From a virus (taxonomy: Duplodnaviria; Caudoviricetes): 64,000 nt of DNA. The translations under genes were made by a program, and so were the position numbers. The notes below the pieces were generated by a model that saw only the letters and a program-made list of their open reading frames with translations, was not told the origin of the DNA and made no database searches. Shown here piece after piece: positions 17,888-36,436 of this stretch; position 1 is the stretch's first letter, and the number at the start of each line of letters is the position of its first letter. The DNA lies in the IMG/VR virus record IMGVR_UViG_3300027804_000038, positions 64,001-128,000 of that record; one strand, written 5' to 3'.

Positions 17888-17892
17888 ATTTT

Positions 17893-18954: not shown

Positions 18955-18963
18955 ATACTATTA

Positions 18964-20594: not shown

Positions 20595-20603
20595 AATTTA
20601 ATT

Positions 20604-21596
20604 TTAATCATTATTATTTTTTTTGTTGTCATAGTATACCATCCAGTAGTCAATCATTTCATCTAACATTGACTCAAACGTATACTCATGAGTCCATCCA
20701 GTTGCGTTTACAAGTTTAGAAGAATCTCCTTTTAGATTATTTAATTCTTCAGGTCTCAAAAATTTTTCATCTTGTTTAATATATTCAGACCAATGTAGAC
20801 CCAATCTAGTGAAAACATAATTTACAAGTTCCTTTACAGAATGAGAAACTCCTGTCGCACAAACAAAATCATCTGGATTATCTAATTGTAATATTTCCCA
20901 CATTGCTTTTACATAATCTTTAGCGTGCCCCCAATCACGAGTTGCGTCTAAATTACCTAATTTTAATTCGTTTGATAACCCCAATTTAATTTTAACTGCC
21001 TCCTTACATACTTTATTTGTTACAAAGTTTGTCCCCCTTCTTGGTGATTCGTGATTAAATAATATTCCGTTCGAAATAAACATACCATATGAATTTCTAT
21101 AATTACGACATATATTGTAACTAAAAACTTTTGCACATCCATATGGAGATACTGGATTCATCGGTGTTGTTTCTCTTTGGAATCCGTCAGAATCAATTGA
21201 ATTACCAAACATTTCTGATGATGACGCTTGATATATTTTAGTATCAGGTTTAACTAATTTAACGGCTTCAAGTAAATTTAATGTACCTAATCCTGTAACA
21301 TTAGATGTATAAATTGGCTGGTCAAATGAAATCCTAACGTGAGATTGTGCCGCTAAATTATAAATCTCATCAGGTTTTATTTTTTGAATTACTGAAATTA
21401 ATGATGATATGTCAGTCAAATCTGCATAATGAAGTTTTACTTCATTATAAACTTCATTTAATCTAGAAGTTTGATTTTCAGAGACTGAGTTTCTTTTTAG
21501 AGTACCGTGAACCTCATAACCCTTTTCTAATAAAAATTCAGATAAATATGAACCATCCTGACCATTAATTCCTGTAATAAGTGCAATTTTATTCAT
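20604..21596 (-). CDS. gmd: GDP-mannose 4,6-dehydratase
   Basis: ITGINGQDGSYLSEFLL, YNLAAQSHV, YQASSSEMFG, SPYGCAK, LFNHESPRRG, LGNLDATRDWGHAKDY. Confidence 0.97.
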   Translation of the reverse strand: MNKIALITGINGQDGSYLSEFLLEKGYEVHGTLKRNSVSENQTSRLNEVYNEVKLHYADLTDISSLISVIQKIKPDEIYNLAAQSHVRISFDQPIYTSNVTGLGTLNLLEAVKLVKPDTKIYQASSSEMFGNSIDSDGFQRETTPMNPVSPYGCAKVFSYNICRNYRNSYGMFISNGILFNHESPRRGTNFVTNKVCKEAVKIKLGLSNELKLGNLDATRDWGHAKDYVKAMWEILQLDNPDDFVCATGVSHSVKELVNYVFTRLGLHWSEYIKQDEKFLRPEELNNLKGDSSKLVNATGWTHEYTFESMLDEMIDYWMVYYDNKKNNND

Positions 21597-21994
21597 TATT
21601 TTTTTGTGTTTTTAATTTTTAAAAATTCATCAAAGTCAAGAATGTAGTCATTTTTATCATACTCTGTTGAACAGATAACTAATAAAACGGAGTCTTCCGA
21701 TAAAAATTTTTGGGAGTCCCATATTAGTTTATCAACTAATACAAATTCACCCTTTCTTATTGTTGTTATTTTTTCTGATATACCGTCATGTAAAATAACT
21801 TCAATGGTTCCTGATACACATATTAGAATTTGAATAGTTTCAAAATGAGAGTGATTACCTCTAATTGTATTTTTTGGGACATTACTAACGGTAAAAACTC
21901 TTTGTGGTTTAAATGGGAAATGACTAAAGTCAACAGGTATTAAATCACCTCTTAAATCGCTAAATATACTTAATTTATTTATTTTTTTTTCCAT
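21596..21994 (-). CDS. Sugar 3,4-ketoisomerase (FdtA/QdtA cupin)
   Basis: DLRGDL, PFKPQRVF, RGNHSHF, Q.LIC..G, LLVICSTEYDKNDYI. Confidence 0.9.
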   Translation of the reverse strand: MEKKINKLSIFSDLRGDLIPVDFSHFPFKPQRVFTVSNVPKNTIRGNHSHFETIQILICVSGTIEVILHDGISEKITTIRKGEFVLVDKLIWDSQKFLSEDSVLLVICSTEYDKNDYILDFDEFLKIKNTKK

Positions 21995-22905
21995 TCTTTA
22001 ATTAAACTAATGATATGGTTAATATCAAAATTTGTCAATTCTTCATGGAAAGGTATAGATACTGTCGTAAGTGAATCAATTTCAGATAAAGGACAGTTTG
22101 AATCTTTTTTAAAATATACAGGGTGGTTATGCAACGATTCATAGTGTATTCCACAAATCACACCATTTTGACGCATAAATGAAATAAATTCGTTTCTATT
22201 ATTTACTGAAATTCGATATAGGTGATTGCTAATATTATCATAACCTAATTCTTTGTTATAAATTTCTCTAATTTCATTTAATTTAGATAATTTGTTTTCG
22301 TATTTTTTAAAGTTTCTAAATGCAATATCACATTGTATACTGTTCATGTACATTTTATAACCAGGAAATTTAATTTTCCTTTCCCAGTTATTGTCAGAAT
22401 ATGACATTCCATTTAATGCCATCTCTTTTAATTTTACTATTTTATCTAAATCATTAGATACTATCATACCACCATCACAAGACCCTACTGGTTTAGTTGG
22501 GTAAAAACTAAATATCATTAAATCTTGCGGATTACATTCATTAATAAATTGATTTTTTTCTAGTTTTTGCGCGGAGTCTATTACTTTATAATCCCCAAAA
22601 TCATGTAGTAAATACGAGTTTCCCACCCAATTTATATCATCATAAAATTCATAATTATTGCCTGAGGTTATTATGGCGTTAACAACAACTGGAGGTATAA
22701 TACTTGGAATTTTAACTTTTAAATTTTTATACTGTAAAAAAAGTAAAAAAATAGCACTTGTTGCACTATTAAAACTTACCCCATGCTTAGCCCCAACGTA
22801 TTCACAAATTGAAGACTCGAATTCGGTGACAATATTATCATGTAATAAATTACTATAATTTGAAGTGTCAATTGTGTGGTTGTTTATGTTAAATAAATTT
22901 ATCAT
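21979..22905 (-). CDS. DegT/DnrJ/EryC1/StrS PLP-dependent sugar aminotransferase (short, 308 aa)
   Basis: SFNSATSA, IDSAQ, FSFYPTKPVGSCDGGM with catalytic Lys, GYKMYM, VSIPFH. Confidence 0.88.
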   Translation of the reverse strand: MINLFNINNHTIDTSNYSNLLHDNIVTEFESSICEYVGAKHGVSFNSATSAIFLLFLQYKNLKVKIPSIIPPVVVNAIITSGNNYEFYDDINWVGNSYLLHDFGDYKVIDSAQKLEKNQFINECNPQDLMIFSFYPTKPVGSCDGGMIVSNDLDKIVKLKEMALNGMSYSDNNWERKIKFPGYKMYMNSIQCDIAFRNFKKYENKLSKLNEIREIYNKELGYDNISNHLYRISVNNRNEFISFMRQNGVICGIHYESLHNHPVYFKKDSNCPLSEIDSLTTVSIPFHEELTNFDINHIISLIKEWKKK

Positions 22906-23702
22906 ATTAATTTATAAAATTTATAGTCATTATTACCCCCATTTCTATATAGTTCTTTCCAAAAAACATCCCTGAAGTAGTCGCTATTATTTTTGTAATT
23001 TACAACCCAATCGTAACTATGAATTATTTTTTTATTTTTATTACCGCAAAAAGATGCGGATATTACAAAAGTCGATGGAGATGAAATAACATATTTACAT
23101 TCTGAAATTTTAGTAAAATCTTCTTTAAAATTAGACACATTTCCAGTAGAATAACCAATTTTTAAAAAATTTAAATACTCAATAGTTTTAATATAGGATT
23201 CTAAATTTGTGTCATCAGAAAATAAAATATAATTATAGTCTTCTTCATTTATTTCAGACCTAACAAAATCTATACTATTTTTATAATATTCAAAAGGTAA
23301 TATTGATTTAGGGTCCCATTGATGAAAGTCTCCACCTCTAAAATGAATTGCCACATTTTTTTTGGTTAAATCTATATTCTTATATTTAAAAATATCGTAG
23401 GTAGACAAAGTAGAAAATTCATAAAAATACTCTAATAATGAAGGTTCTAAATAATATATTTTATCATTATCTAATGATACCTCAAATTTATTTTTTATTA
23501 GAAAATTAACATCTAATATTTCATATTGTTCTTTATTATATTCTCTTGTTTTATTTCCAACCTCAAATAACTCTAGTCCATTAAATTCAGTAAAAAAATA
23601 ATCTTGATTATAAAATTTAGATATCTGTATTAAATTATTTAATCCTATTATTTTATTACCAAATTGGTACCCATTCCAATTATTAAAATTAGTAATAATC
23701 AT
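22902..23702 (-). CDS. GT11 family (alpha-1,2-fucosyltransferase-like) glycosyltransferase
   Basis: N-terminal GYQFGNKI, VAIHFRGGDF, ILFSDD, ISSPSTF. Confidence 0.8.
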   Translation of the reverse strand: MIITNFNNWNGYQFGNKIIGLNNLIQISKFYNQDYFFTEFNGLELFEVGNKTREYNKEQYEILDVNFLIKNKFEVSLDNDKIYYLEPSLLEYFYEFSTLSTYDIFKYKNIDLTKKNVAIHFRGGDFHQWDPKSILPFEYYKNSIDFVRSEINEEDYNYILFSDDTNLESYIKTIEYLNFLKIGYSTGNVSNFKEDFTKISECKYVISSPSTFVISASFCGNKNKKIIHSYDWVVNYKNNSDYFRDVFWKELYRNGGNNDYKFYKLI

Positions 23703-23703
23703 A

Positions 23704-24177
23704 TTAGTATTTTATTTTAAATTTTGACATAGTATCCACAGATTCTAATAGTTCTAAAAATTTTAAAGCTTTTTTATATTCAGGTCTAAAAAAATCATGT
23801 ATAAATACAATAGTATTTTCATTACCTAAAAGATTACAGATTGACGCACATGATACTCTAGCTCTACCATCTATTAAAATAACATCAAAAGGGGCGTAAT
23901 TTAGTGGTGAATTAACATATGTATAAAACTCTTCATAAGAACCGTCATCTCCACCTTCGGTATAATCTAAATCAGGTGCGGAGTATATTAAAGTACAATT
24001 ATTTGGTTTTTTTTTAGATATATCCTTATACCAATTTTCTTGATGCTCAACTGAGACTATTGTTTTACACCTATTGGCAATTTCTATTGTAGAATACCCA
24101 CTTCCATACTCCAAAACTTTTTTTGTTTCATCAATGTGGGACATAAAAAAAAATTCTTCAGATTTGTTAGCGAACAT
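23704..24177 (-). CDS. SAM-dependent methyltransferase (probable sugar O-methyltransferase)
   Basis: VLEYGSGYST, VSVEH, DVILIDGRAR, VFIHDF. Confidence 0.8.
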   Translation of the reverse strand: MFANKSEEFFFMSHIDETKKVLEYGSGYSTIEIANRCKTIVSVEHQENWYKDISKKKPNNCTLIYSAPDLDYTEGGDDGSYEEFYTYVNSPLNYAPFDVILIDGRARVSCASICNLLGNENTIVFIHDFFRPEYKKALKFLELLESVDTMSKFKIKY

Positions 24178-24180
24178 AAT

Positions 24181-24819
24181 TTACAGTAAATTTTTTTTAA
24201 CATAAAGAGCGTCACCCCAACCTCCGCCATGATATTCATGAGTCATTGTTCTTATAAAACCATGTTCACTTAAAGATTCATCCATTTCATTAATCAAATG
24301 GCATCCGTCATACATATGTATTGTGTTTATTTCAGTGTATATAAAATCCATATTTTTTAAAAACTCGCCCATTGATAATATCACATTTAAGTCAGCTCCC
24401 TGAACGTCAACATTCATAAAATTAAAATCATCAATTTTAATATAGTTTTCAATTAGTAATGTATCCATCCTTTTTGTTACCATTTCAATTTGGTCAACAT
24501 AAACAACATCTGAAAATTTATTTTTATGTTCTTTTAAATCTAAAATAGAAGATGATTGGCCGTTATTACTTATATTGAATTTTACTTTTTTTTCAGAATC
24601 GTAAATTACTTCATTAATTGTAATAATATTTTCATTACCTAAAAATTTATTTTTTAAATTACCATATAATTTTGGATTACCCTCAACCCAAATAATTTTA
24701 TTAATACCTATTTCATTATAGTCGTCATATTCTTCAGCTTCGTGAGCTCCAACATGTATAATCCCTTTAATTGGTATATTTTCGTATTTTGTTTTAATTT
24801 CTTTAATCTTAATAAACAT
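24181..24819 (-). CDS. FkbM family methyltransferase
   Basis: IIHVGAH, WVEGNP, SSIL, FMNVDVQGADL, YTEIN..MYDG, WGDALY. Confidence 0.9.
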   Translation of the reverse strand: MFIKIKEIKTKYENIPIKGIIHVGAHEAEEYDDYNEIGINKIIWVEGNPKLYGNLKNKFLGNENIITINEVIYDSEKKVKFNISNNGQSSSILDLKEHKNKFSDVVYVDQIEMVTKRMDTLLIENYIKIDDFNFMNVDVQGADLNVILSMGEFLKNMDFIYTEINTIHMYDGCHLINEMDESLSEHGFIRTMTHEYHGGGWGDALYVKKNLL

Positions 24820-24820
24820 A

Positions 24821-25414
24821 TTATACTCTTTCTATTAATATTGATTTACCAAACTCACTATCTAATTCTTCAATAATTCTATGCTCAGACAATAAATTTT
24901 TAAACTCTTCTTCGGAAATAAATGACCTAACAGTGGTTAAATTACCATATGTATTGTATTCATTAATTTTACCTTCTTTTGAACAATATTGTCTATGAAT
25001 TATTAAATATTTTTTAGTGTTTTTTAATATCTGACTTAACACAGGTATTGGTTCTGGCAATTCAGATAAAAAACTATTACATAATAATATATCGTATTTT
25101 TTAAAAAAAGTATAGTCAAAACTATATGCGTCAAATTCAAAATATTCTAAATTTGGGTTAACTTTTTTCGCAACATCTTCAATAATATGAGGTAAATCAA
25201 ATCCGCTATAATTTAACTTGCTATAAACCCTCCCGACTTCTCCAGCCCCACATCCTATGTCCGCAATATTATCACAGTTGCATTTATTTATTAGATTATT
25301 AAGATATGGAAAATGAGCAGCATTTTCTAAACGACCCCATCCATTTAAACCCATAGCACCTCTAACCATTTCGTTAGGTAATATATCAGTATTATACCAA
25401 GCAGTTTTTTTCAT
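24821..25414 (-). CDS. Class I SAM-dependent methyltransferase
   Basis: IADIGCGAG, YSGFDL, YDILLCNSFLSEL. Confidence 0.8.
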   Translation of the reverse strand: MKKTAWYNTDILPNEMVRGAMGLNGWGRLENAAHFPYLNNLINKCNCDNIADIGCGAGEVGRVYSKLNYSGFDLPHIIEDVAKKVNPNLEYFEFDAYSFDYTFFKKYDILLCNSFLSELPEPIPVLSQILKNTKKYLIIHRQYCSKEGKINEYNTYGNLTTVRSFISEEEFKNLLSEHRIIEELDSEFGKSILIERV

Positions 25415-25423
25415 AGTTTTTAA

Positions 25424-26251
25424 TTATTTCCAATAACAACCACCTTCCAATATTTTGTAATTTTCAGGAGTTTCTAATTCATTAGGATAAACCCAATTTT
25501 CATTAAAGAATTTATTTATTTCGTCATGATTATCCCATCTTTGACCTCTTATTCCGAACATAATTTGAATTGCTCCTCCAATATATATTGATGATTTTTT
25601 TAAATCATTTTTTATGAAATTAACAAGAGGTAACCCATAAGTACCACATCCTAATAAGGCAATTTCAAAATCAATTTTTGAAATGTGTTCTTTCATTATA
25701 TTTAAAGATTCGACCCAAGATGAATGAGGTCTCAACTCACCAACAGATTGCACTGATTTGTATGTAATCAAATCAATATTTGGTAGTACTTTTTTATCCC
25801 CCCAAATATTTTTTATTTTTAAATATTGTTGTTTTATACTATAACTAAATGGATTTATTACTAAAACCTTTTTTCCATTAAGGTTTAAACTCCATGGGGA
25901 GTTTAAAAAATATGGTTCTACCGTCCTATGATTTACTTTATGTGAATTAGGGGATAAAATGTCAAATATTTCATTTTGTTTTACGTCCAAGTTAGAATTC
26001 ATCCAAAAACAATTAATATCTGATTTTTTTACCGATTCAATATACAACTCTAAAAAAGTATCAAAGCAATCCCCATATACCCCACCAAAATTTTTAGCAA
26101 TCTCTATGTCTTGATTTGACGGGGTAGAACCCTTCAATACTTTATGTATTAGATTAACCTCTCCAATACCCATTCTACTTACTGAAAAAATATTATTATT
26201 AATAATATTTTCAGATATAAGTTTATTACCTTCTTCTAAATTTAAAATCAT
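25424..26251 (-). CDS. GT-D fold-like (DUF1792-like) protein
   Basis: VSRMGIGE, VLVINPF, IALLGCGTYGLPL, YIGGAIQIMFGIRGQRWD. Confidence 0.6.
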   Translation of the reverse strand: MILNLEEGNKLISENIINNNIFSVSRMGIGEVNLIHKVLKGSTPSNQDIEIAKNFGGVYGDCFDTFLELYIESVKKSDINCFWMNSNLDVKQNEIFDILSPNSHKVNHRTVEPYFLNSPWSLNLNGKKVLVINPFSYSIKQQYLKIKNIWGDKKVLPNIDLITYKSVQSVGELRPHSSWVESLNIMKEHISKIDFEIALLGCGTYGLPLVNFIKNDLKKSSIYIGGAIQIMFGIRGQRWDNHDEINKFFNENWVYPNELETPENYKILEGGCYWK

Positions 26252-26850
26252 TTTATTTTTTTTAATGGGGTACCAATGTATGTTCCAGACTCCTCAACAT
26301 TTTTTATTACACCTGAATTCATCCCAATCTTAACATTACTACAAATTTTTATTTTTTCTCTGATTGTAGAGTTAGTACCTAAATAAATTTTATCCATTAA
26401 AATACAATTTCCTGATATGTTTACATTTGGTGTTGTTGTAAAAAAATCGCCAATCATACAATCATGACCAATAGTGGTGTTTAAATTAATATGGGCGTGT
26501 CTCCCAATAGTAATGTTTGTCGTTAATATTGAACCAGCACAAATAATTGAGCCGTGACCAATTTTTATATTTTCATCTAAAATTTTAGCACTTGAGTGTA
26601 TATAGGTATAAAATTGTGTTTCAGATGGTAATCTTTTAACTATTTGTTCTCTTATTTCAGGTTCAGCTACAGTAACTAAAACTTTAAATTTTTTAATATC
26701 TAAATCACTTATTTTTTTACAATTTATATTGTTATCATCAAAAAATTCTATATAATTTTTATCAATACCATCGTTTATCATATGATAATAAACTTCCCTA
26801 CCAAAACCACCATTACCAATAAGAGCTATTTTATTATAGAATTCTATCAT
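26248..26850 (-). CDS. Sugar N/O-acetyltransferase (NeuD/PglD/PerB-like, hexapeptide repeat)
   Basis: IGNGGFGREV, left-handed beta-helix repeats, TTIGHDC, YIGTP. Confidence 0.9.
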   Translation of the reverse strand: MIEFYNKIALIGNGGFGREVYYHMINDGIDKNYIEFFDDNNINCKKISDLDIKKFKVLVTVAEPEIREQIVKRLPSETQFYTYIHSSAKILDENIKIGHGSIICAGSILTTNITIGRHAHINLNTTIGHDCMIGDFFTTTPNVNISGNCILMDKIYLGTNSTIREKIKICSNVKIGMNSGVIKNVEESGTYIGTPLKKIK

Positions 26851-27856
26851 ACATTTTGATTTCAGAAATTTTTTTATCCCAATCTATTAATTTTTTATAC
26901 CAATTTAAAGTATGAGTGGTTTCATCTTCATAGTTAATATTTGAATTTTCTAAATTATTCTTAATTTCAATAACCCCATCCTCAATACTATATTTACATG
27001 TGTATCCTAACTCATTTTCAATTTTATTGAAATTTAAACTATAGCTTCGATTATCGGGATTGTTTGGTATAAAAATGATTTTAGATTTAGGTATTAAACT
27101 AGAAATTTTATTTGCTAAATCTTTTATTTTTAAATTTTGGTTATTAGACCCTACGTTAAAAATTTTATTTTTACAATCATCGATTTTTTTAACGCATGTT
27201 ATCATAACATTAATAACATCTTTAACATGTACAAAAGGTCTCCACTGTTCACCATCTCCCATTATATAAATTATCCCGTCTTTAGTACCTGTAAGAGTCA
27301 TTATATTAACCGCCAAATCAAACCTCATTCTGTGTGAATATCCGTATATTGTTGAATTTCTTAGTATTGTAATATTAAAATCATCGTCACAGGTATCTAA
27401 CAATACCCTTTCAACAGACACCTTACTTTTTGAATATTCAGTTAATGGATTTAGTTTAAAATTCTCATCCATAAATTTTACTTCACTAAAACCATACACG
27501 CTTGCCGAACTTGAATATATATAATGTTTTACTTTATTTTTTTTAGATAACTCAATTAACCTTTTTGAACCATAATAATTAATTTCTTCAGTAAATTTTG
27601 GGTTTATCTCTGATGTTGCGTCATTACTTAGTCCGCATAAATCGATAACAACATCAACTCCGTTTAAAATAGATTCATTAAAAAATCTTATATCGTCAAT
27701 TAAAATTTCTAAATTTTTACTTTTAATTTTTTTAATTTTATCAACTCCAAAAAAGTATCTGTCTAAAGCAATTACTTTATACCCTTGAGATAAAAGTTCT
27801 TCACAAAGCATTGTACCTACATAACCGCCAGCACCCGATATTAAAATTTTTTTCAT
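26834..27856 (-). CDS. NAD-dependent sugar epimerase/dehydratase (extended SDR)
   Basis: ISGAGGYVG, SSSASVYG, YSKSK (YxxxK), RPFVHVKD. Confidence 0.9.
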   Translation of the reverse strand: MKKILISGAGGYVGTMLCEELLSQGYKVIALDRYFFGVDKIKKIKSKNLEILIDDIRFFNESILNGVDVVIDLCGLSNDATSEINPKFTEEINYYGSKRLIELSKKNKVKHYIYSSSASVYGFSEVKFMDENFKLNPLTEYSKSKVSVERVLLDTCDDDFNITILRNSTIYGYSHRMRFDLAVNIMTLTGTKDGIIYIMGDGEQWRPFVHVKDVINVMITCVKKIDDCKNKIFNVGSNNQNLKIKDLANKISSLIPKSKIIFIPNNPDNRSYSLNFNKIENELGYTCKYSIEDGVIEIKNNLENSNINYEDETTHTLNWYKKLIDWDKKISEIKMYDRIL

Positions 27857-28974
27857 ATATTAAAATATTTTTTAACAGTGTTAAATAAATAATCGATTTC
27901 AGATTCTATCATATCTGTATGTAACGGTAGTGAAACTAAACTATCTTTTATTTTATTAGTAAAATTTAAGTCTAAATTTGAAAATTTTCCACTGTAAAAG
28001 TCTAATTCATGAACTGCCGTATAATACCTCCTTACAGTAATATCATTTTTAGACATAAAATTTGTAAAATTTTCAGCGTTTTCATTTAATATTAGTGGAA
28101 AATATAGGTAATTACAAAAGACATTTTTATCTATTTCCATAAGACTAAAAAATGGTTTAAACATATCCGAAGAAAAAAATTCAATGTATTTTTCTATAAC
28201 TTTTTTTCTTTTAATTAATGCGTTTTCTATATTTTTTAAATTATGTAAACCAACAATTGCTGAAATTTCTTGCATTTTACTGTTAAGACCAGGATATTTT
28301 ATGTTTCCTCTTGTTTTTTCGTATTGACCAAAATCTCTTAAATATTGTAAAATCTCCCAAATTTCTTCGTCTTCAGTAACAACAAGACCCCCTTCCATAG
28401 TTGTAAAATTTTTAGAGGCGTGTAAACTATAGATTTCGCTAAATCCAAAACTATTAATATATTTATTTTTATAAGTTGAGCCAAAGGCTGGCGCGTTATC
28501 AAAAATTACGCATATATTATTTTTTTTAGAAAATTCAATAACTTCATCAATGTTAGGAATATTTCCATACGCCCCAACAATAACCAGCATTTTTACATTA
28601 TTATCAATATTACATTTTTTTAAGTTAATAATAAGTTTTTCATCAACATCACAAAAAATAGGTTCTAAATTATTCATATATAACGCATTTATAGTACCTG
28701 AAAATGTTACTGAGGGTACTAAAACTTTAAACGTTTGATTGTGATGATAACCCATTTTTATTTTTTGAGCTTGTATTAAATGGAAAAGTGCCATTTCTCC
28801 ATTACAAAACAAAATTGGTTTTAATTTACTTGATAGGTAAATTTGAAGCTCTTCTTCTAATTTTTTTACAAATTTAGAGTTATTCGTAACTAAACCGTTT
28901 TCTAAACATTCTTTAAAATCTTCATATATTAAATCTATACTAGGTAGAACTGGCTTTATAATATTAATTTTCAT
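27853..28974 (-). CDS. DegT/DnrJ/EryC1/StrS sugar aminotransferase
   Basis: PSVTFSGT, PIFCDVD, FDNAPAFG, SLHASKNFTTMEGG, GLNSKMQE, VSLPLH. Confidence 0.92.
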   Translation of the reverse strand: MKINIIKPVLPSIDLIYEDFKECLENGLVTNNSKFVKKLEEELQIYLSSKLKPILFCNGEMALFHLIQAQKIKMGYHHNQTFKVLVPSVTFSGTINALYMNNLEPIFCDVDEKLIINLKKCNIDNNVKMLVIVGAYGNIPNIDEVIEFSKKNNICVIFDNAPAFGSTYKNKYINSFGFSEIYSLHASKNFTTMEGGLVVTEDEEIWEILQYLRDFGQYEKTRGNIKYPGLNSKMQEISAIVGLHNLKNIENALIKRKKVIEKYIEFFSSDMFKPFFSLMEIDKNVFCNYLYFPLILNENAENFTNFMSKNDITVRRYYTAVHELDFYSGKFSNLDLNFTNKIKDSLVSLPLHTDMIESEIDYLFNTVKKYFNI

Positions 28975-28975
28975 T

Positions 28976-29875
28976 TTAATTATATTCTATTATTTTTAAA
29001 TTTTCACCAACATAGAAAATATCAATAATTTTTAAAAATTTGTCAATATTCCAATTTATGTTATGTTCGCATAAACTTCTATCAAAGTCATCCTGCAATA
29101 CTTTAATTATTGTATTTTTATTCACTTTAAATTTTAAATTTACCATTTCTCTCTCATAGTAACACCACCTATCCCAATTGTTAAAAATAACCCCATCAAT
29201 GTCAATAAGACCTGTGTATGGACCTACTATTTGTGACATCCCAATAATTTCAGAAGGACCTTCTAATACTAATCTATTTTTAATTATTTTATTAAATTCT
29301 ATTTTTTTTATATTACAAAATTTTGTTTCTTTTGGGTAATTTTTAGGTATTTCATGTTTGTTATATATCTCATTAAAAAAGAATTCACTTATTTTTTCAC
29401 TATACTGGTTGGCCCCATAATCAGTAGTATGAATTCCATCTCTTAAAATTTCATTAATATTTTTTTCAAAACATTCACTTAAATCTAAAACAGGTATTTT
29501 TAAATTAGTTAAATAATTATTTAATTTTTTATAAATTTCTGTTTTATCCACTGTCTTATCTGGAAAAATTAAAAAAATTAGTTTTACATTATTTTTATAA
29601 AATTTATTAATAATGGTATCAACATACTCTTGTATTTCATCAAATTTATCTTCATTATATTTTATATACCCTGTACTAAACCAATCAATAAAACAATATT
29701 CGGGATTTGAACTTAGTACCTCATCAATATAACAAACTCCTGCGTCTGATAAATGTCTGGCTCCAAATCCATAAGAATTAACATTAAAATTTTGATTAGA
29801 GTCCTTAAAATATTTCCAATACCCGTTATGTTGCTGGGTAACACTTGCACCAAAAAAAGAAATTCTATTTTTCAT
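28976..29875 (-). CDS. SGNH/GDSL hydrolase (probable sugar acetylesterase/acyltransferase)
   Basis: Block I FFGASVT, block II GFGA, block V DGIHT. Confidence 0.75.
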   Translation of the reverse strand: MKNRISFFGASVTQQHNGYWKYFKDSNQNFNVNSYGFGARHLSDAGVCYIDEVLSSNPEYCFIDWFSTGYIKYNEDKFDEIQEYVDTIINKFYKNNVKLIFLIFPDKTVDKTEIYKKLNNYLTNLKIPVLDLSECFEKNINEILRDGIHTTDYGANQYSEKISEFFFNEIYNKHEIPKNYPKETKFCNIKKIEFNKIIKNRLVLEGPSEIIGMSQIVGPYTGLIDIDGVIFNNWDRWCYYEREMVNLKFKVNKNTIIKVLQDDFDRSLCEHNINWNIDKFLKIIDIFYVGENLKIIEYN

Positions 29876-29888
29876 GTTTAATCATTAT

Positions 29889-30770
29889 TTAATATTTTTT
29901 TAATTGCTCGATAAATTTGTTCTTCAATGAATATAAATTTCTAATCACTGATTCTGGATGGGACCCCTCAAATACTTTAGTGTAACACTCTCCTCTGACA
30001 TTAGGTTTAAATTCGTGGACTCCTAAATATTTTTGTTCAACATTATACCTATCTAAATCTTTTCCATTTACCCATGGTAAATAAATTTTATTAAAATAAT
30101 CATCGATACAATTTTCTCTACTAACTGAATCTTTATAATAATTTACTTTTTTAAAAACTTGGTCAGGAAAAACATATGAATAATGATACATTTGTACCCC
30201 TAATAAGTCATATAGTGTTTTACTATCTACGTGCTTTCTAATGACATTTAAATTATTAGGATATTCTATGGTTGGAGGTCTATGGGTTAACCAAGTTGAG
30301 CCCTTATAATATTTAAAAATTCTTAAAAAATTATCGGTATTTAATTCAAATCCAGTTAAATAATTGTCAAAACCACCATAAAAAGAACAACTTTGTATAC
30401 CAACACTTGTCGGAGTTTCTTTTTTTAAGAACTCAATAATCTTAATTAAATCTTCAGTTTTATAAACTTCATCAGAATCTAAGTTCCATATATAATCAAT
30501 ATCGTCGTTAACATATTGCATATAAGCCCTACACTGTTCATCTTTTTCTGAAAATTTACCATGTATTATTTTTATTTTATTATCAGGGTCTGGAAATTCA
30601 TCCAAAATTTTATTTGTATCGTCTGTAGATGTTGTTTTACCTTGTCTTTGCCAATATGAGACTGGACCTTCCGATATTAAAATCTGAGACGCAAAAGGAT
30701 AGACTTGTTCTAAACATTCTTTAAGAACATAGTCACCCTCAAAAACAATCATACCAAATGCAATTTTCAT
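29889..30770 (-). CDS. Glycosyltransferase, GT-A fold
   Basis: ILISEGP, KIKIIHG, WNLDSDEVY DxD motif, MYHYSYV. Confidence 0.75.
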   Translation of the reverse strand: MKIAFGMIVFEGDYVLKECLEQVYPFASQILISEGPVSYWQRQGKTTSTDDTNKILDEFPDPDNKIKIIHGKFSEKDEQCRAYMQYVNDDIDYIWNLDSDEVYKTEDLIKIIEFLKKETPTSVGIQSCSFYGGFDNYLTGFELNTDNFLRIFKYYKGSTWLTHRPPTIEYPNNLNVIRKHVDSKTLYDLLGVQMYHYSYVFPDQVFKKVNYYKDSVSRENCIDDYFNKIYLPWVNGKDLDRYNVEQKYLGVHEFKPNVRGECYTKVFEGSHPESVIRNLYSLKNKFIEQLKKY

Positions 30771-30774
30771 TATT

Positions 30775-31641
30775 TTAGTTATATTTTGATTTTATTTCAA
30801 TTATTTTATTGTAGTATTCGTCGTATATAATTTTGAGCGATTTATTATTATGGTACACATCCATTGGTGTGTATATATGATGCATTTTTGAGGGTATATA
30901 TGTTTTTTCATCATAGTCAAATTGAGAAAAGTGACTAAACACCAACTTTTGGTATTTACCATCCCATATTATGTTACCATTTTTTTCATAGTCAGAATAA
31001 TCATACAATTGCCATTGCCACGGAGCTCCATGACCAATATTACCATCAATAAAAATATAATCATTTGGGCACATGTTTGGGAACTCATCTAAATATTTTT
31101 GGTCTCCACATGTTGATAGATGGGGATGTTTTTTATGTAAGACAGAATCGGCCCACCATTTACATATATGTTTACCAATCTTTCCATTTTTAAAGTAAAC
31201 AACCCCAACATTAAACCACCCCTCAACTCTTGGTGTTGATAGGTCAAATTGTCTATGCCTAAAAATACCAACTTCATTTTCACCAATTTCATCATAGATA
31301 TCATCTATGTTATTGTGAAAATATATATCACTGTCGATATATGTTATAGATTCGATATCTTTACTAAGAAGATAATTAGAAAAATAAGAGGCTAAAGACC
31401 AACAAAAATATTTATATTCACTAAGTTTTAAATTTAATAAATTATTATCTTCTGACAATAAAGAGTTAATATGGTAGGGTATTAAATTTTCTGATTCATA
31501 TTTTTTAACTTTATCAAAAGTAACATCATCAATACATAAATAATGAAGTTTAAAATTTTTATTTTTATCTAAAATCGATTCATATAAAGTTAATCCCTTA
31601 TATAGATAATTTATATCTGATACTGTACATATGTTTTTCAT
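30775..31641 (-). CDS. Glycosyltransferase, GT-A fold (GT8-like)
   Basis: CTVSDINYL, TYIDSDIYF, FNVGVVYF, GDQKYLD. Confidence 0.75.
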   Translation of the reverse strand: MKNICTVSDINYLYKGLTLYESILDKNKNFKLHYLCIDDVTFDKVKKYESENLIPYHINSLLSEDNNLLNLKLSEYKYFCWSLASYFSNYLLSKDIESITYIDSDIYFHNNIDDIYDEIGENEVGIFRHRQFDLSTPRVEGWFNVGVVYFKNGKIGKHICKWWADSVLHKKHPHLSTCGDQKYLDEFPNMCPNDYIFIDGNIGHGAPWQWQLYDYSDYEKNGNIIWDGKYQKLVFSHFSQFDYDEKTYIPSKMHHIYTPMDVYHNNKSLKIIYDEYYNKIIEIKSKYN

Positions 31642-32303
31642 AAATTAAAATTTAAACTTCTCCTTGTCACATATAGATTATTATCGTGACCCAAATCAAT
31701 TTGATTTTTATTATGTATTAAATCACGATTCCCATATCCCCAATCAGGGTGTTCGTGTTTTATAATAACTTCATTAAAATAAGTTTGTTTATTTAAAATT
31801 GCGGCAACTGACATAAATTCATTATCACACCATGTGGATTTATATTCAGGATAATATATATAATTAAATCTTTCATAATATTTTTTACCCAAAATACATA
31901 ATGTATTTAGTCTATTTCCTTGGAATCCGTCATTAAACCATAAAACTCCATCAGTATCAGGATAATTAGATACCATTTTATCAATGATAATATTGTCATA
32001 TCCTTTAATTTGTGGAATCATGTCATCTGATGCTAAAAGTAATATGTCCCACTCGGTAAAATTTTCTAAGTCTCTATTAACCGCATGAACTTTAGATTTA
32101 CTTTCCCCAACAACAACAGACACATTCGTAAAATTTTTTAATATGTCAAAAGTATCTTGATTATTCATTTCTATATCATCTCTATCGATTGATACTAAAA
32201 ATTTTACATTATTAATATCGTCACATAAATCATAATATTTTTTAAAGGTATTAAAAAATTTATTTTTTCGACCTCTAGTTGGGAATTTTACTATAATCTT
32301 CAT
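31638..32303 (-). CDS. Glycosyltransferase, GT2-like
   Basis: KFPTRGR, SKVHAVNR, LLASDDMIP, WCDNEF, IKHEH. Confidence 0.78.
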   Translation of the reverse strand: MKIIVKFPTRGRKNKFFNTFKKYYDLCDDINNVKFLVSIDRDDIEMNNQDTFDILKNFTNVSVVVGESKSKVHAVNRDLENFTEWDILLLASDDMIPQIKGYDNIIIDKMVSNYPDTDGVLWFNDGFQGNRLNTLCILGKKYYERFNYIYYPEYKSTWCDNEFMSVAAILNKQTYFNEVIIKHEHPDWGYGNRDLIHNKNQIDLGHDNNLYVTRRSLNFNL

Positions 32304-33933
32304 TGTATAAATTAATATAACTCAATTTTATGTTTTCGGAAACAATAGACGAATAAAATTTTTGTAAATCGTTTGGTACTAAATGTAATTTTTTACTAAT
32401 AATGTTACCTAAATTATCTACGTCATATATCCATCCCGATTTTCCACACATCCAACCCTCGATAGTTGTTCTTCCTAATAAAATACCTGCAGTTTCGGAA
32501 CATTTATGTATATATTTTTCAACTTCGGTAGTGGGCCCAAAATGTTTAACATGAGAATTTTGTAGTACTTCAGTCAAATAATCAGATTTATTCTCACCAA
32601 CTAACCATAATTCCTTACCTTCATTTTTTGACACTTCTATTAAATCAAAAATTGTATTTTTCCTTAGATAATCTATTGACCCTACAAACAATATATAATT
32701 TTCAGATTTAATATTTTTAGGAGTAAATTTAGTTTCGTCTATTGGGTTATAAATAATTTCAATTTTGTCTTCACTAATATCAAAGTTTTTAATAATGTGT
32801 TCTTTAATTTCAGGACGAATTGCGATGTATTTTTTAATAGACGGGTGTTTTACAGGGTTTTCCAATTCAATAACTTCTGAATGGATTGTACAGACTTTGT
32901 CAACTGTTGGATAAAGCATATTCATGACTTCAACTATTGGTTTGTGCTGACAATGAATTATATCAAAATGAGGAACTTCAACCTGATAAAAATTATTAGG
33001 TACTGATGGTTGAGGTCCTTTTTCAGTCATTACCATCCATTTTCCATCCCCCATTTTAAATCCTGGGGTTTCTCTAATATTTTTAACTTTAATACCTAAT
33101 TTAGTTGCCATTAAAACTAATGGACCGTTAGTTTCTGATGCAACAACAGTTACATCACAATTTAATTTAATTAAATTTTTAGCTAATTCAAAAACATACA
33201 TCTCAGACCCTGTAAATCTTTGGAAGAAAAGACAAGATATTAAAACTTTTAGTTTTGAATTTTCATCAAATCTAACCTTAGATGGTAGGGAGTCTTTATA
33301 TTTTTCTGCAAATATTTTTCTATTAATTTCCCATTGTTCATTAGTCATTCCGATTGATTTATGGGTAATTCTGATATTTGTCATTACCCCAATCTTAACT
33401 CCCTCTATGAAATTTTTATAACAAAAATTAACATCGTACATGTGAAATCCATCTACAGATTCATCAAATTTTGATTTTATTTTATTTTTGTCTATCGCTA
33501 TAAAAACACCATCAACTACAACAACTTCTTTTAATGAATTTTGTAATGATTCAGAGTATTTTGATTCCCATTTTTTACCATTATTTTCATGATTTACAAT
33601 TCCATACATCTTAGTTCTGTCTTCCCACCACGTACCACTTTTGGGTATATGAGTCGTTCCAGCCATTCCAATTATTCCGTAATCAGGATTCTTATCAAAA
33701 TTTCTAACTAATTTTGAGGCCCAATTATTAGTATCAAAATAAATGTCATCATGGCATAACACGACAACATTGTATTCAGATTCAGATATTATTTCATTAT
33801 AAACTGTAGATAAATTTTTTTCCCCATTATTAATTTTTTCAATAATCTGTATTTTTGGGTGACCTGCAATTTTTTTTAGGTATTCTTGGAAATACGGATT
33901 TGTTTTTCTTGTGCTATATCCAATTGTAATCAT
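32275..33933 (-). CDS. Two-domain glycosyltransferase (N-terminal GT2-like, C-terminal GT-B)
   Basis: VVLCHDDI, VVVDGVFI, GFHMYD in N-half; FTGSEMY, IYNPIDE, LLGRTTIEG in C-half. Confidence 0.78.
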   Translation of the reverse strand: MITIGYSTRKTNPYFQEYLKKIAGHPKIQIIEKINNGEKNLSTVYNEIISESEYNVVVLCHDDIYFDTNNWASKLVRNFDKNPDYGIIGMAGTTHIPKSGTWWEDRTKMYGIVNHENNGKKWESKYSESLQNSLKEVVVVDGVFIAIDKNKIKSKFDESVDGFHMYDVNFCYKNFIEGVKIGVMTNIRITHKSIGMTNEQWEINRKIFAEKYKDSLPSKVRFDENSKLKVLISCLFFQRFTGSEMYVFELAKNLIKLNCDVTVVASETNGPLVLMATKLGIKVKNIRETPGFKMGDGKWMVMTEKGPQPSVPNNFYQVEVPHFDIIHCQHKPIVEVMNMLYPTVDKVCTIHSEVIELENPVKHPSIKKYIAIRPEIKEHIIKNFDISEDKIEIIYNPIDETKFTPKNIKSENYILFVGSIDYLRKNTIFDLIEVSKNEGKELWLVGENKSDYLTEVLQNSHVKHFGPTTEVEKYIHKCSETAGILLGRTTIEGWMCGKSGWIYDVDNLGNIISKKLHLVPNDLQKFYSSIVSENIKLSYINLYNEDYSKIPN

Positions 33934-36420: not shown

Positions 36421-36436
36421 AATTGTGTGTATTCCA

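What the first reader, a model, noticed from the sequence alone, without database searches (positions are those of the whole stretch)
20604..32303. 11.7 kb exchangeable glycan-design island for amino-dideoxy, acetylated and methylated sugars
Seen: Gmd, FdtA-like isomerase, two DegT aminotransferases, extended SDR, NeuD/PerB-like acetyltransferase, three methyltransferases, SGNH hydrolase and five GT-like genes (GT11, GT-D-like, three GT-A), packed between phoH and the GT2/GT4 fusion, visibly more AT-rich than the capsid or sheath genes. Established: Gmd + DegT + acetyltransferase makes GDP-N-acetyl-perosamine; FdtA + DegT makes 3-amino-3,6-dideoxyhexoses (Fuc3N/Qui3N); these are O-antigen-type sugars. 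Inference: a hypervariable cassette that sets the outer glycan of the virion or remodels the host surface.
Basis: partly seen in the sequence, partly recalled or inferred. Interest (0 to 1): 0.7.

Follow-up and report, generated by a model that had tools for sequence, protein, structure and literature searches.

The report
Swappable sugar-coat gene cassette in jumbo phage
A 294-kb uncultured freshwater phage carries, in one fixed genome slot, a tightly packed set of soluble enzymes for making and attaching rare amino sugars. Related phages fill the same slot with different enzyme sets, much as bacteria swap surface-sugar loci, but what the sugars are attached to is still unproven.

Summary
Window 20604-32303 holds 15 back-to-back minus-strand genes: Gmd, an FdtA-like isomerase, two DegT aminotransferases (one a compact 308-aa form), a Cj1427/GalE-like SDR, a VioB/PglD-type N-acetyltransferase, two or three methyltransferases, an SGNH-fold protein and five GT-like genes.

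The window lies in a 293,850-bp T4-like jumbo phage from lakes, probably infecting Bacteroidota.

Nineteen distinct relatives share the phoH-side and dut/exonuclease-side flanks. The interval between them runs from 5 to 19 kb and holds 170 gene clusters, 113 seen once, nearly all glycan enzymes. Phages with 95%-identical flanks share 2 of 16-19 accessory genes; others have islands more alike than their flanks. So whole cassettes are exchanged.

No island protein is membrane-embedded, and the genome has no sugar nucleotidyltransferase. The island is the genome's GC minimum. Independent metagenomes from 12 studies hold this exact version, so it is not a misassembly.

Most likely (about 55%) it builds a lineage-specific glycan on virion proteins. 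Host-surface remodelling is the main rival.

Comparable hypervariable glycan islands are published for cyanomyophages and pelagimyophages, and this scan has found similar ones in other phages. I class it as a new member of a known kind.

The parts
17084..17887 (-). Conserved GT2-type glycosyltransferase in the phoH-side flank (core, not variable)
   Evidence: Pfam PF00535 25.4 bits. 59-79% identical in all relatives.
19860..20594 (-). PhoH-like ATPase; conserved right-hand anchor of the slot
   Evidence: PF02562 214 bits. At least 597 relatives in IMG/VR. 72-88% identity in the 80 loci.
20604..21596 (-). GDP-mannose 4,6-dehydratase (Gmd); semi-conserved island anchor
   Evidence: PF16363 396 bits, TIGR01472 404 bits against a cut-off of 415. 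Present in 15 of 19 relatives, mostly in two identity classes of about 87% and 62%.
21596..21994 (-). FdtA/QdtA-like NDP-4-keto-6-deoxyhexose 3,4-ketoisomerase
   Evidence: PF05523 115 bits. PDB WxcM/FdtA/QdtA 60-84 bits, with RGNHSH aligned to RGEHAH.
21979..22905 (-). Compact (308 aa) DegT-family sugar aminotransferase, paired with FdtA
   Evidence: PF01041 113 bits in two stretches; about 37 residues missing relative to PseC. At least 1,939 homologues, the best 120 all 301-317 aa. D110-S-A-Q113 and K138 invariant. pLDDT 87.5, TM 0.78-0.80 to solved sugar aminotransferases.
22902..23702 (-). GT11-like (fucosyltransferase-fold) glycosyltransferase, divergent
   Evidence: No Pfam or PHROG hit. 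ESM Atlas features 0.98 with GT11-bearing clusters, structure TM 0.81. A lead, not proof.
23704..24177 (-). 157-aa ORF, possible small SAM methyltransferase (unverified)
   Evidence: Only motif-I-level hits: Erm E 0.002, RrnaAD E 0.033. 55% homologue in L173.
24181..24819 (-). FkbM-family methyltransferase
   Evidence: PF05050 56 bits; TIGR01444 46.6 bits, above its cut-off.
24821..25414 (-). Class-I SAM methyltransferase
   Evidence: Methyltransf_23/12/31/25 at E 1e-5 to 2e-3, below gathering scores. TIGR04325 E 3e-7.
25424..26251 (-). Possible GT-D-like glycosyltransferase (weak)
   Evidence: PF22882 22 bits against a cut-off of 27; NF040628 E 0.002. The 48% homologue in L173 carries the same weak hit.
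26248..26850 (-). NeuD/PglB/VioB-family N-acetyltransferase for 4-amino sugars
   Evidence: TIGR03570 155 bits. PglD_N plus hexapeptide domains. Best PDB hits VioB 99 bits, then 4m9c, PglD, PerB.
26834..27856 (-). Extended SDR, Cj1427/GalE-like NDP-sugar C4 oxidoreductase; not a 4,6-dehydratase
   Evidence: Best PDB hit 6vo6 at 126 bits, next (GalE type) 82 bits. SSSASVYG and YSKSK motifs, with no Asp/Glu after the Ser. DegT-SDR pair at 61% in a Bacteroidota contig.
27853..28974 (-). Full-length DegT sugar aminotransferase (Lys188 present)
   Evidence: PF01041 207 bits. PDB scyllo-inositol transaminase/PseC/Per/QdtB all 94-101 bits. SLHASK motif.
28976..29875 (-). SGNH/GDSL-fold protein (candidate glycan O-acetyl-transferase or esterase)
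   Evidence: No significant Pfam hit. Atlas features 0.95-0.97, structure TM 0.82-0.83 to SGNH clusters.
29889..30770 (-). GT2 (GT-A) glycosyltransferase
   Evidence: PF00535 36 bits. 74-78% identical in L172-L174.
30775..31641 (-). GT8 (GT-A) glycosyltransferase
   Evidence: PF01501 24.9 bits against a cut-off of 24.3. 58-81% in L172-L174.
31638..32303 (-). 221-aa phage glycosyltransferase (phrog_14945)
   Evidence: PHROG E 5e-19. 57-71% in L172-L174 and 65% in L106_L020.
32275..33933 (-). GT2_5 + GT4 fusion glycosyltransferase; semi-conserved left-hand anchor
   Evidence: PF13712 102 bits plus PF13439 49 bits. In 12 of 19 relatives at 50-80%.
33930..36420 (-). Conserved left flank: dUTPase, 3'-5' exonuclease, GT-B glycosyltransferase (phrog_7162)
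   Evidence: 49-87% identical in all merged relatives.

Best explanation
This is the variable part of a phage 'glycan type' locus. A freshwater T4-like jumbo phage lineage, probably of Bacteroidota, keeps a fixed slot between phoH and dut/exonuclease. The slot is bracketed by core glycosyltransferases and usually by Gmd and a GT2_5/GT4 fusion. It is filled with interchangeable, tightly co-oriented cassettes of soluble glycan enzymes.

In this phage the cassette takes host-made nucleotide sugars. It converts them with Gmd, an FdtA-like 3,4-ketoisomerase plus a compact aminotransferase, and a DegT-SDR-acetyltransferase triad. The expected products are a 3-amino-3,6-dideoxyhexose and an N-acetylated 4-amino sugar (perosamine-type or 4-amino-4-deoxy-type). 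It then O/N-methylates and possibly O-acetylates, and five island GTs plus three core GTs assemble the oligosaccharide in the cytoplasm.

The acceptor is most likely the phage's own virion proteins, which include several Thr/Pro-rich mucin-like stretches. Cassettes, and sub-modules within them, move between lineages by homologous recombination in the conserved flanks during co-infection. This gives each lineage its own glycan type.

Shown: gene content, soluble nature, slot conservation, cassette exchange. Inferred: sugar identities, acceptor, selective agent.
For: Gene content.

Fixed slot, variable content:
- The flank genes are found in 19-22 of the 22 merged relatives, but there is no nucleotide match inside 21.6-31.5 kb.
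- The interval is 5.1-18.8 kb. Its 301 ORFs form 170 clusters, 113 of them singletons.
- Representatives of 150 clusters are dominated by GT2, SDR, Gmd-like, methyltransferase, DegT, GT11, GT10, GT17 and hexapeptide families.

Exchange:
- L089/L090 flanks are 95% identical but only 23% of the island aligns, with 2 shared accessory clusters.
- The L084/L102 island is 89.5% identical over 99% of its length, while the flanks are 85% and 77%.
- L173 flank proteins are 30-47% identical, but its island GT2 is 74% and its mini-DegT 71%.
- The window island is an L172-type backbone plus a four-gene block, three genes of which (the DegT-SDR-AcT triad) recur in L168/L169.

Cytoplasmic chemistry:
- None of the 15 island proteins has a hydrophobic segment, and none of 301 island proteins in relatives has three or more.
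- The genome has no PF00483 nucleotidyltransferase.

Candidate acceptors: Thr/Pro-rich stretches in six proteins, including the tail sheath, the portal-region ORF, the ORF just upstream of it and the ORF at 46639-47571.

Not an artefact: the same island is held by 20 runs of 12 studies, and contigs from four independent studies cross 21,596 while contigs from three of them cross 32,300.

Precedents:
- Megavirinae use clade-specific clusters of 6-33 genes to put rare bacterial amino sugars on virion fibrils (PMC10117803).
- Mycobacteriophage virions are glycosylated by phage GTs (Freeman 2023, as cited in PMC12619734).
Against: - There is no direct evidence for any glycan on virions; the phage is uncultured.
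- Published interpretations of similar islands in cyanomyophages and pelagimyophages favour host O-chain modification (PMC7029224, PMC12801897).
- The enzymes resemble those of bacterial polysaccharide loci. Many O-antigen GTs are also soluble or peripheral, so lack of TM proteins does not exclude action on host lipid-linked intermediates.
- The island sits among nucleotide-metabolism genes rather than structural genes.
- Sugar identities rest on family-level homology. SDR340's substrate is unknown, and three calls (ORF157, ORF275, ORF266) are weak.
Confidence: 0.55

Rival explanations
1. Host-surface remodelling. The cassette supplies unusual nucleotide sugars and peripheral GTs that act on the host's own undecaprenyl-linked O-antigen or capsule intermediates during infection. 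This changes the cell surface and so blocks superinfection by competing phages or stops progeny being trapped on debris. Diversity would then track host and competitor diversity.
For: - The sugars and enzyme families are typical of O-antigens.
- The SDR lies in a bacterial polysaccharide cluster with DegT, FkbM, hexapeptide and GT genes, and the DegT-SDR pair is 61% identical in a Bacteroidota contig.
- This is the standard published reading for cyanomyophage 'LPS/CWSM' clusters and for the pelagimyophage hypervariable island (PMC12801897, PMC7029224; P-SSM2 block seen).
Against: - Among 301 proteins of 19 islands there is no initiating phosphoglycosyltransferase, flippase, polymerase, ligase or ABC transporter. 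Host Wzx/Wzy/ligase steps are usually specific for their own units.
- The phage looks lytic, so there is little time for surface turnover.
- The same genome has other GT loci beside Thr/Pro-rich virion proteins (earlier notes e1-5342007, e1-5341991).
Confidence: 0.25
2. DNA or nucleotide glycosylation. The GTs, co-oriented with dUTPase, exonuclease, an NT5C-like gene and PhoH, hypermodify phage DNA with variable glycans to escape restriction, as in T-even phages and the systems of Pyle et al. 2024.
For: - The island lies in a nucleotide-metabolism neighbourhood.
- Variable glycans on DNA are known from phage GTs (Pyle 2024, as cited in PMC12619734).
- A hypervariable modification would fit an arms race with type IV restriction.
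Against: - The only thymidylate-synthase-family gene in the genome passes NCBIfam equivalog cut-offs for true thymidylate synthase (347 bits against 325; 328 against 108). It lies about 170 kb away, so no hydroxymethylase was found.
- The complexity here (two amino-sugar routes, acetyl- and methyltransferases, at least five GTs) looks more like oligosaccharide building on protein or lipid than DNA base decoration.
Confidence: 0.07
3. Misassembly, or a recently captured host fragment with no phage function.
For: The island is compositionally distinct: it is the lowest-GC stretch of the genome.
Against: - Twenty runs from 12 studies hold this island.
- Contigs of four independent studies bridge Gmd-FdtA, and contigs of three of them bridge the ORF221-fusion boundary.
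- Genes overlap across both borders.
- Relatives carry analogous islands in the same slot.
- The best bacterial identity found for the SDR is 61%. For the mini-DegT, the three neighbourhoods inspected were all phage contigs.
- GC is lower than the phage average, not host-like.
Confidence: 0.01

Closest known systems
Hypervariable 'LPS / cell-wall' gene islands of aquatic T4-like myophages: P-SSM2 LPS cluster, S-SCSM1/S-SCSM2R CWSM genes, pelagimyophage host recognition cluster (PMC12801897, PMC7029224; P-SSM2 record AY939844)
   Same: - A large T4-like myovirus.
- A block of about 12 kb led by Gmd, with nucleotide-sugar epimerases and GT1/GT2/GT6/GT11/GT25 genes.
- Non-syntenic between relatives.
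- Function never shown experimentally.
   Different: - The slot here is between phoH and dut/exonuclease in the replication and nucleotide module, not among tail-fibre genes (the HRC is defined as lying between VrlC and gp14).
- The host is probably Bacteroidota.
- The content is amino-sugar chemistry (FdtA, two DegT, N-acetyltransferase, methyltransferases).
- Cassette exchange decoupled from flank phylogeny, and the total absence of membrane proteins, are documented here.
Clade-specific glycosylation gene clusters of Megavirinae giant viruses (Notaro et al. 2022, PMC10117803)
   Same: - Virus-encoded pathways for rare bacterial-type amino sugars, plus GTs, in clusters of 6-33 genes.
- Content differs between clades.
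- The enzymes work in the cytoplasm or virus factory on virion proteins.
- The nearest look-alike clusters of the GT11-like and SGNH-like ORFs include many Nucleocytoviricota members.
   Different: - Those are eukaryotic viruses, and their glycans were chemically demonstrated on fibrils.
- Here nothing is demonstrated chemically.
- Exchange here is between closely related genomes at a single slot.
Bacterial O-antigen and capsule loci with conserved flanks and swappable centres
   Same: - Conserved flanking genes, a low-GC hypervariable centre and whole-cassette replacement by flank recombination.
- The same enzyme families.
   Different: No Wzx/Wzy/WaaL, ABC transporter or initiating phosphoglycosyltransferase in any of 19 islands. 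It is carried by a lytic-type phage.
Mycobacteriophage virion glycosylation (Freeman et al. 2023, as cited in PMC12619734 and PMC12801897)
   Same: Phage-encoded soluble GTs decorate capsid and tail proteins; the content varies among phage clusters.
   Different: - Those systems have only one to a few GTs, placed within structural operons.
- They have no nucleotide-sugar biosynthesis module.
'Moraphages', freshwater jumbo phages of Bacteroidota (Perez-Hernandez et al. 2025, PMC12619734)
   Same: - Freshwater habitat, 200-307 kb genomes, predicted Flavobacteriia hosts.
- PhoH and UvsW-type helicase in the core, and four core glycosyltransferase orthogroups.
- The authors note unexplored variable genomic islands.
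   Different: Membership could not be tested because their sequences are not in the tools' collections. The paper does not describe this island or its content.

Membership tests
Hypervariable glycan/LPS islands of aquatic T4-like myophages | T4-like myovirus backbone | tested here: met
   Portal phrog_213, major head phrog_138, sheath phrog_23. The capsid protein is 41% identical to Flavobacterium phage immuto and 31-45% to other listed T4-like or huge phages.
Hypervariable glycan/LPS islands of aquatic T4-like myophages | Contiguous block of nucleotide-sugar and glycosyltransferase genes | tested here: met
Hypervariable glycan/LPS islands of aquatic T4-like myophages | Non-syntenic content between relatives with conserved flanks | tested here: met
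Pelagimyophage/cyanomyophage 'host recognition cluster' in the strict sense | Located in the structural region with tail-fibre genes (between VrlC and gp14) | tested here: not met
   The island lies between phoH and dUTPase/exonuclease. No fibre gene lies inside it.
Bacterial Wzx/Wzy- or ABC-dependent O-antigen/capsule locus | Initiating polyprenyl-phosphate glycosyl-phosphotransferase, flippase/polymerase or ABC transporter | tested here: not met
   No hydrophobic segment in any island protein of the window. None of 301 island proteins in 19 relatives has three or more.
Virus-encoded virion glycosylation clusters (Megavirinae, mycobacteriophages) | Virus-encoded GTs, with or without nucleotide-sugar pathways, with lineage-specific content | tested here: met
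Virus-encoded virion glycosylation clusters (Megavirinae, mycobacteriophages) | Glycan demonstrated on virion proteins | not testable with these tools
   The phage is uncultured. Only candidate acceptors (Thr/Pro-rich stretches) were seen.
GDP-N-acetylperosamine pathway (Gmd, Per, PerB) | GDP-mannose 4,6-dehydratase | tested here: met
   396 bits PF16363; 404 bits TIGR01472, with a cut-off of 415.
GDP-N-acetylperosamine pathway (Gmd, Per, PerB) | Per-type C4 aminotransferase and PerB-type N-acetyltransferase | tested here: inconclusive
   DegT373 scores the same (94-101 bits) against Per, PseC and QdtB. The acetyltransferase is closest to VioB (99 bits), with PerB only 39 bits. All of these relatives acetylate 4-amino sugars.
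dTDP-Fuc3N/Qui3N pathway (RmlA, RmlB, FdtA/QdtA, FdtB/QdtB) | Glucose-1-phosphate thymidylyltransferase (RmlA) | tested here: not met
   No PF00483 match in the whole 293,850-bp genome; the control rang in 14 of 14 genomes. The host would have to supply dTDP-glucose.
dTDP-Fuc3N/Qui3N pathway (RmlA, RmlB, FdtA/QdtA, FdtB/QdtB) | dTDP-glucose 4,6-dehydratase | tested here: inconclusive
   An RmlB-like SDR exists elsewhere in the genome (G000 45631-46647): 284 bits to TIGR01181, below the cut-off of 365. Inside the island the only dehydratase is Gmd, directly downstream of FdtA.
dTDP-Fuc3N/Qui3N pathway (RmlA, RmlB, FdtA/QdtA, FdtB/QdtB) | 3,4-ketoisomerase with catalytic His pair, plus C3 aminotransferase | tested here: met
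   FdtA 115 bits with the RGNHSH motif. The adjacent mini-DegT has a PLP Lys and an aminotransferase fold. The nucleotide carrier (dTDP or GDP) is unresolved.
T-even-type DNA glycosylation | dCMP/dUMP hydroxymethylase providing the acceptor base | tested here: not met
   The single TS-family gene passes the equivalog cut-offs for genuine thymidylate synthase.
Moraphages (PMC12619734) | Phylogenetic placement by TerL/MCP/PolB with the 25 published genomes | not testable with these tools
Only descriptive traits match.

The most novel reading that the evidence does not exclude
The exchangeable cassette writes a virion-displayed glycan 'serotype' that takes part directly in infection. For example, it could act as bait recognised by the glycan-capturing SusC/SusD-type outer-membrane systems or lectins of Bacteroidota hosts. 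Swapping the cassette would then retarget or tune adsorption and host range, and the locus would evolve under negative frequency-dependent selection like bacterial O-antigen loci. A chemical sub-case is that Gmd + FdtA-like isomerase + mini-DegT form a GDP-linked route to a 3-amino-3,6-dideoxy-mannose-type sugar, with a dedicated GDP-sugar 3,4-ketoisomerase.
Probability: 0.1. Interest if true: 0.8.

Novelty: new member of a known kind. Interest (0 to 1): 0.5.

Why it matters
Clusters of 'LPS-like' genes in large aquatic phages have been noted since the P-SSM2 genome, without any experimental answer to what they glycosylate. This locus gives a clean natural experiment. One slot, present in hundreds of metagenomic phage contigs, is filled with at least 170 different soluble glycan genes. 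There is documented cassette swapping between near-identical genomes, and no export machinery at all.

That pattern argues that these phages maintain glycan types under diversifying selection, and that the acceptor is cytoplasmic. The most economical candidate is the virion, as in giant viruses. If so, virion glycan diversity would be an overlooked dimension of phage ecology, affecting adsorption, decoy avoidance, grazing and stability. It would also be a source of compact enzymes for rare amino sugars, such as the 305-aa aminotransferase family.

The locus also answers the call in the moraphage paper to characterise the variable islands of freshwater jumbo phages.

Tried and rejected
- Megablast of 18000-36500 against 50,697 phage records found no match.
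- A genome-contig scan with SDR340 gave only three weak hits. The method finds close relatives only, so it is uninformative.
- The promoter and terminator scan of 19000-38900 gave 167 promoter-like sites against 142±11 expected by chance, and 4 terminators against 4.7. It is not informative in this AT-rich DNA.
- A TATTTAT motif precedes many genes and sits 15 nt upstream of the first gene of the minus-strand array (39027). Internal copies are at chance frequency, so the timing of island expression could not be inferred.
- No RNA holder was listed among the sequencing runs.
- The many short-sided 'joints' in read laying at 90% likeness probably come from related phages, and no conclusion was drawn from them.
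- I could not verify from the library that PDB 6vo6 is Cj1427. PMC7509852 is not held and a text search for 6VO6 was irrelevant. The identification is from memory and fits the depositor's name.
- Pfam, NCBIfam and PHROGs gave nothing significant for ORF157 or ORF275, nor for 16332-17084 and 17893-18954.
- DNA hypermodification was considered and down-weighted, because the only TS-family gene is a genuine thymidylate synthase.
- 'Island unique to this phage' was rejected. That is true only against the IMG/VR top 80. Other metagenome contigs (L172-L174, L168, L169) share sub-modules.

Full report
**What the window is.** The window is bases 64001-128000 of a 293,850-bp IMG/VR virus record that CheckV rates as complete. 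It encodes a portal, a T4-type major head protein, a contractile sheath, a family-B polymerase and a UvsW-like helicase. The capsid protein is most like those of uncultured huge phages and Flavobacterium phage vB_FspM_immuto, at 40-45% over about half its length. Runs that hold the sequence are freshwater, lake, estuary and aquaculture metagenomes, plus runs labelled fungus metagenome or simply metagenome. Earlier notes of this scan propose a Flavobacteriales host; I did not test that.

**Observation.** Between phoH (19860-20594) and a GT2_5+GT4 fusion gene (32275-33933) lie 15 minus-strand ORFs. Gaps are at most 13 nt and seven junctions overlap. In transcription order they are:
- ORF221, a phage GT (phrog_14945, E 5e-19).
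- GT8 and GT2.
- ORF299, SGNH fold.
- DegT373 (207 bits; Lys in SLHASK).
- SDR340.
- A NeuD/PglB/VioB-family acetyltransferase (155 bits).
- ORF275, weak GT-D-like (22 bits).
- A class-I methyltransferase and an FkbM methyltransferase.
- ORF157, with only a SAM motif-I match.
- ORF266, GT11-like (Atlas 0.98, TM 0.81).
- A 308-aa DegT.
- FdtA (115 bits).
- Gmd (396 bits).

Three items rest on weak evidence: the third methyltransferase, GT-D and GT11.

The island is 26.2% GC against 30.2% for the genome. It is the lowest-GC 11.7-kb stretch of the whole genome, and per-gene GC differs at p = 3e-5.

**It is real DNA of this phage.** This exact island is held by 20 runs from 12 studies dated 2019-2025. 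I laid contigs from four independent studies on 17000-36500. They tile the island with few differences per contig (0-55 over 0.6-7.4 kb). Contigs from all four studies cross the Gmd/FdtA border, for example 21187-22032, 21187-22504, 21198-23832 and 21528-22578. Contigs from three of them cross the ORF221/fusion border, for example 27235-34669, 27988-32359 and 31463-32836. In these runs contigs break inside Gmd, and summed depth over phoH/Gmd is up to ten times that of the island. This is what one expects if co-occurring relatives share the anchors but carry other islands.

**Hypervariability.** PhoH has at least 597 relatives in IMG/VR, and the exonuclease has 334. I merged phoH-centred and exonuclease-centred loci of the same contigs into 22 intervals, 19 of them distinct.
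- The six genes on the phoH side (16332-20594) are present in all 22 merged relatives. The flank genes from dut to 37764 are present in 19-22. Identities are 27-88%.
- The exonuclease-to-phoH interval ranges from 5.1 to 18.8 kb.
- blastn shows 17-22 of 22 relatives matching across 16,000-21,500 and 14-22 across 32,500-37,500. Not one base matches between about 21,600 and 31,500.
- The 301 interval ORFs fall into 170 clusters at 40% identity, 113 of them singletons. Only dUTPase (19/19), Gmd (15/19) and the GT fusion (12/19) recur widely.
- Pfam on 150 cluster representatives shows the slot always holds glycan genes: GT2 14, SDR epimerase/dehydratase 11, Gmd-like 9, Methyltransf_24 9, FkbM 8, DegT 7, GT11 6, GT10 4, GT17 3 and hexapeptide transferases 3, plus pyruvyl transferase, UDP-GlcNAc 2-epimerase and TylF.
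- Interval GC is below flank GC in 22 of 23 sequences.

**Cassettes are exchanged, not just diverging.**
- L089_L017 and L090_L005 have flanks 95.3% and 95.4-95.5% identical. Only 23% of the island aligns, and they share 2 of 16 and 19 accessory clusters.
- L084 and L087 have 91-92% flanks and share none.
- Conversely, L084 and L102 have flanks of 85% and 77% but islands 89.5% identical over 99% of their length. L089 and L108 have 71-72% flanks and an 81% island.

Wider metagenome data refine the picture for this window.
- A 65-kb contig (L172) has the same backbone: fusion, ORF221, GT8, GT2, SGNH, MT, GT11-like, mini-DegT, FdtA, Gmd, at 46-88%. It lacks the block DegT373-SDR340-acetyltransferase-ORF275 (25424-28974).
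- That triad occurs at 42-73% in two other phage islands with different neighbours (L168, a 226-kb contig with the same exo-dut...Gmd-phoH frame, and L169).
- In L173, a 317-kb contig, flank proteins are only 30-47% identical, but the island GT2 and mini-DegT are 74% and 71%.

The island is therefore a mosaic of mobile sub-modules. There is no integrase or transposase, so homologous recombination in the conserved anchors is the likely mechanism (inference).

**Chemistry.** The genome has no sugar-1-phosphate nucleotidyltransferase, so host NDP-sugars are the inputs. Gmd is the only 4,6-dehydratase in the island.

SDR340 has a GalE-like SSSASVYG motif plus YSKSK, without the acidic residue that follows the Ser/Thr in 4,6-dehydratases (established knowledge of RmlB and GMD). 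Its best solved relative by a wide margin is 6vo6 (126 bits, next 82). I recall this as Cj1427, the GDP-heptose C4-dehydrogenase that makes a 4-keto sugar without dehydration (function described in PMC10680097; PDB identity from memory).

The acetyltransferase is closest to VioB, 4m9c, PglD and PerB. To my knowledge these all act on 4-amino sugars. DegT-SDR is a conserved adjacent pair in a Bacteroidota contig (61%, next to WbqC). The SDR also sits in a bacterial polysaccharide cluster with DegT, hexapeptide and FkbM genes.

Hence the triad most likely makes an N-acetylated 4-amino sugar. There are two routes:
- from an SDR-made 4-keto intermediate, or

The second module is FdtA plus the 308-aa DegT. 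This compact aminotransferase belongs to a large family of at least 1,939 homologues, the best 120 all 301-317 aa at 66-88% identity. In all three neighbourhoods inspected it is followed by FdtA and lies one gene from PhoH. Its D-S-A-Q and Lys138 are invariant. Its model (pLDDT 87.5) superposes on ArnB, PseC and WbpE at TM 0.78-0.80. It should make a 3-amino-3,6-dideoxyhexose. The carrier could be dTDP: an RmlB-like gene exists at genome 45631-46647, and host dTDP-glucose would be needed. Or it could be GDP: FdtA overlaps Gmd by one base here and is adjacent to Gmd in L172. This is unresolved. Methyltransferases and the SGNH protein would add O/N-methyl and O-acetyl decorations (inference).

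**Target.** No island protein in the window has a hydrophobic segment. None of 301 island proteins in relatives has three or more. So there is no flippase, polymerase, ligase, ABC transporter or initiating phosphotransferase.

Conserved GTs bracket the slot: GT2 at 17084-17887, the fusion, and the phrog_7162 GT at 35206-36420. This suggests a conserved core plus a variable outer glycan. The genome encodes Thr/Pro-rich stretches in six proteins: window 46639-47571, genome 57159-57920, genome 61011-63662 just upstream of the portal gene, the portal-region ORF itself, genome 168078-169091 and the sheath N-terminal extension.

Together with the giant-virus and mycobacteriophage precedents, I rate virion-protein glycosylation as most likely (about 0.55). 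Host O-chain or capsule remodelling is the published default for similar islands (PMC7029224, PMC12801897), and I rate it about 0.25. DNA glycosylation is unlikely (about 0.07), because the only TS-family gene is a bona fide thymidylate synthase.

**Comparison and novelty.** P-SSM2 has a 12-kb block of Gmd, epimerases, GT2, GT1, GT11, GT6 and GT25. Pelagimyophages and cyanomyophages have a hypervariable 'host recognition cluster' rich in GTs (PMC7029224). The moraphage paper on freshwater Bacteroidota jumbo phages reports four core GT orthogroups and unexplored variable islands (PMC12619734). This scan has also reported similar swappable glycan islands in other phage genomes (e1-5336282, e1-5392572, e1-5389648, e1-833549).

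The present locus is thus a new member of a known kind. It is distinguished by its slot (phoH-dut), its amino-sugar chemistry including a compact aminotransferase family, and clear quantitative evidence for cassette exchange and for purely soluble machinery.

Noticed in passing
window 21979-22905; L172:10001-10927; L173:10001-10927; L174:8001-8912: A compact (about 301-317 aa) DegT-family aminotransferase family with at least 1,939 homologues. In the three neighbourhoods inspected it sits next to FdtA and one gene from PhoH, in phage contigs. It lacks about 37 residues of the large domain but keeps D-S-A-Q and the PLP Lys, and it folds confidently. One member (P0224) is listed in 313 blocks of the collection, so its carriers are abundant.
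   Followed up: partly
window 12237-15943: Two large ORFs (539 and 632 aa, no family hits) are positional orthologues in all relatives but only 26-55% identical, while neighbouring genes are 56-88%. They are fast-evolving proteins just downstream of the glycan operon, possibly receptor-binding or decorated proteins.
   Followed up: partly
window 41000-45000: Nucleotide similarity to the 22 relatives drops to 0-3 again over the GT-rich locus noted by other readers (41240-47571). The phage therefore seems to have a second variable glycan locus.
   Followed up: no
window 1516, 2946, 3987, 7646, 54582, 56866, 62552, 39042(-), 52060(-), 10210(-): The heptamer TATTTAT (often ATATTTAT) lies about 10-45 nt upstream of many start codons, including the sheath gene and the first gene of the long minus-strand array. 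It is probably a phage promoter element. The only sizeable gap inside the array (36421-36477) instead carries TTGATT-17-TATTAT.
   Followed up: partly
G000 45631-46647 (18 kb before the window start; L170:4631-5647): An isolated RmlB-like dTDP-glucose 4,6-dehydratase homologue (284 bits to TIGR01181, below its cut-off of 365) with no other sugar genes beside it. It could feed the FdtA branch.
   Followed up: partly
window 5498-7327 and 56910-60089: The major head protein (609 aa) matches capsid profiles only over residues 344-586. The sheath (1059 aa) matches only over its last 290 residues or so. Both carry large extra domains, and the sheath's extension is Ser/Thr-rich.
   Followed up: no
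G000 57159-57920, 61011-63662, 168078-169091; window 46639-47571: Mucin-like Thr/Pro-rich stretches (55-80% S/T/P over 40 residues) occur in several proteins, one encoded just upstream of the portal gene. They are candidate O-glycosylation substrates.
   Followed up: partly
window 19604-21556 (read laying bins): In independent lake and estuary runs the summed contig depth over phoH/Gmd is up to about ten times that over the island (154 against 11 in X7), and contigs break at about 21,187 inside Gmd. This fits several co-occurring relatives that share the anchors but carry different islands.
   Followed up: partly
window 33930-34517; G000 269116-270252: The dUTPase carries a 65-residue N-terminal extension (domain at 66-194 of 195 aa). 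The thymidylate synthase is 378 aa, with the profile match split into two or three stretches, which suggests an insertion.
   Followed up: no
L166:7892-11023: In a Bacteroidota (T9SS-bearing) contig the DegT-SDR pair, 61% identical to the phage's, stands alone next to a WbqC-family gene, outside any large polysaccharide locus. It may be a small conserved amino-sugar module of unknown product.
   Followed up: no
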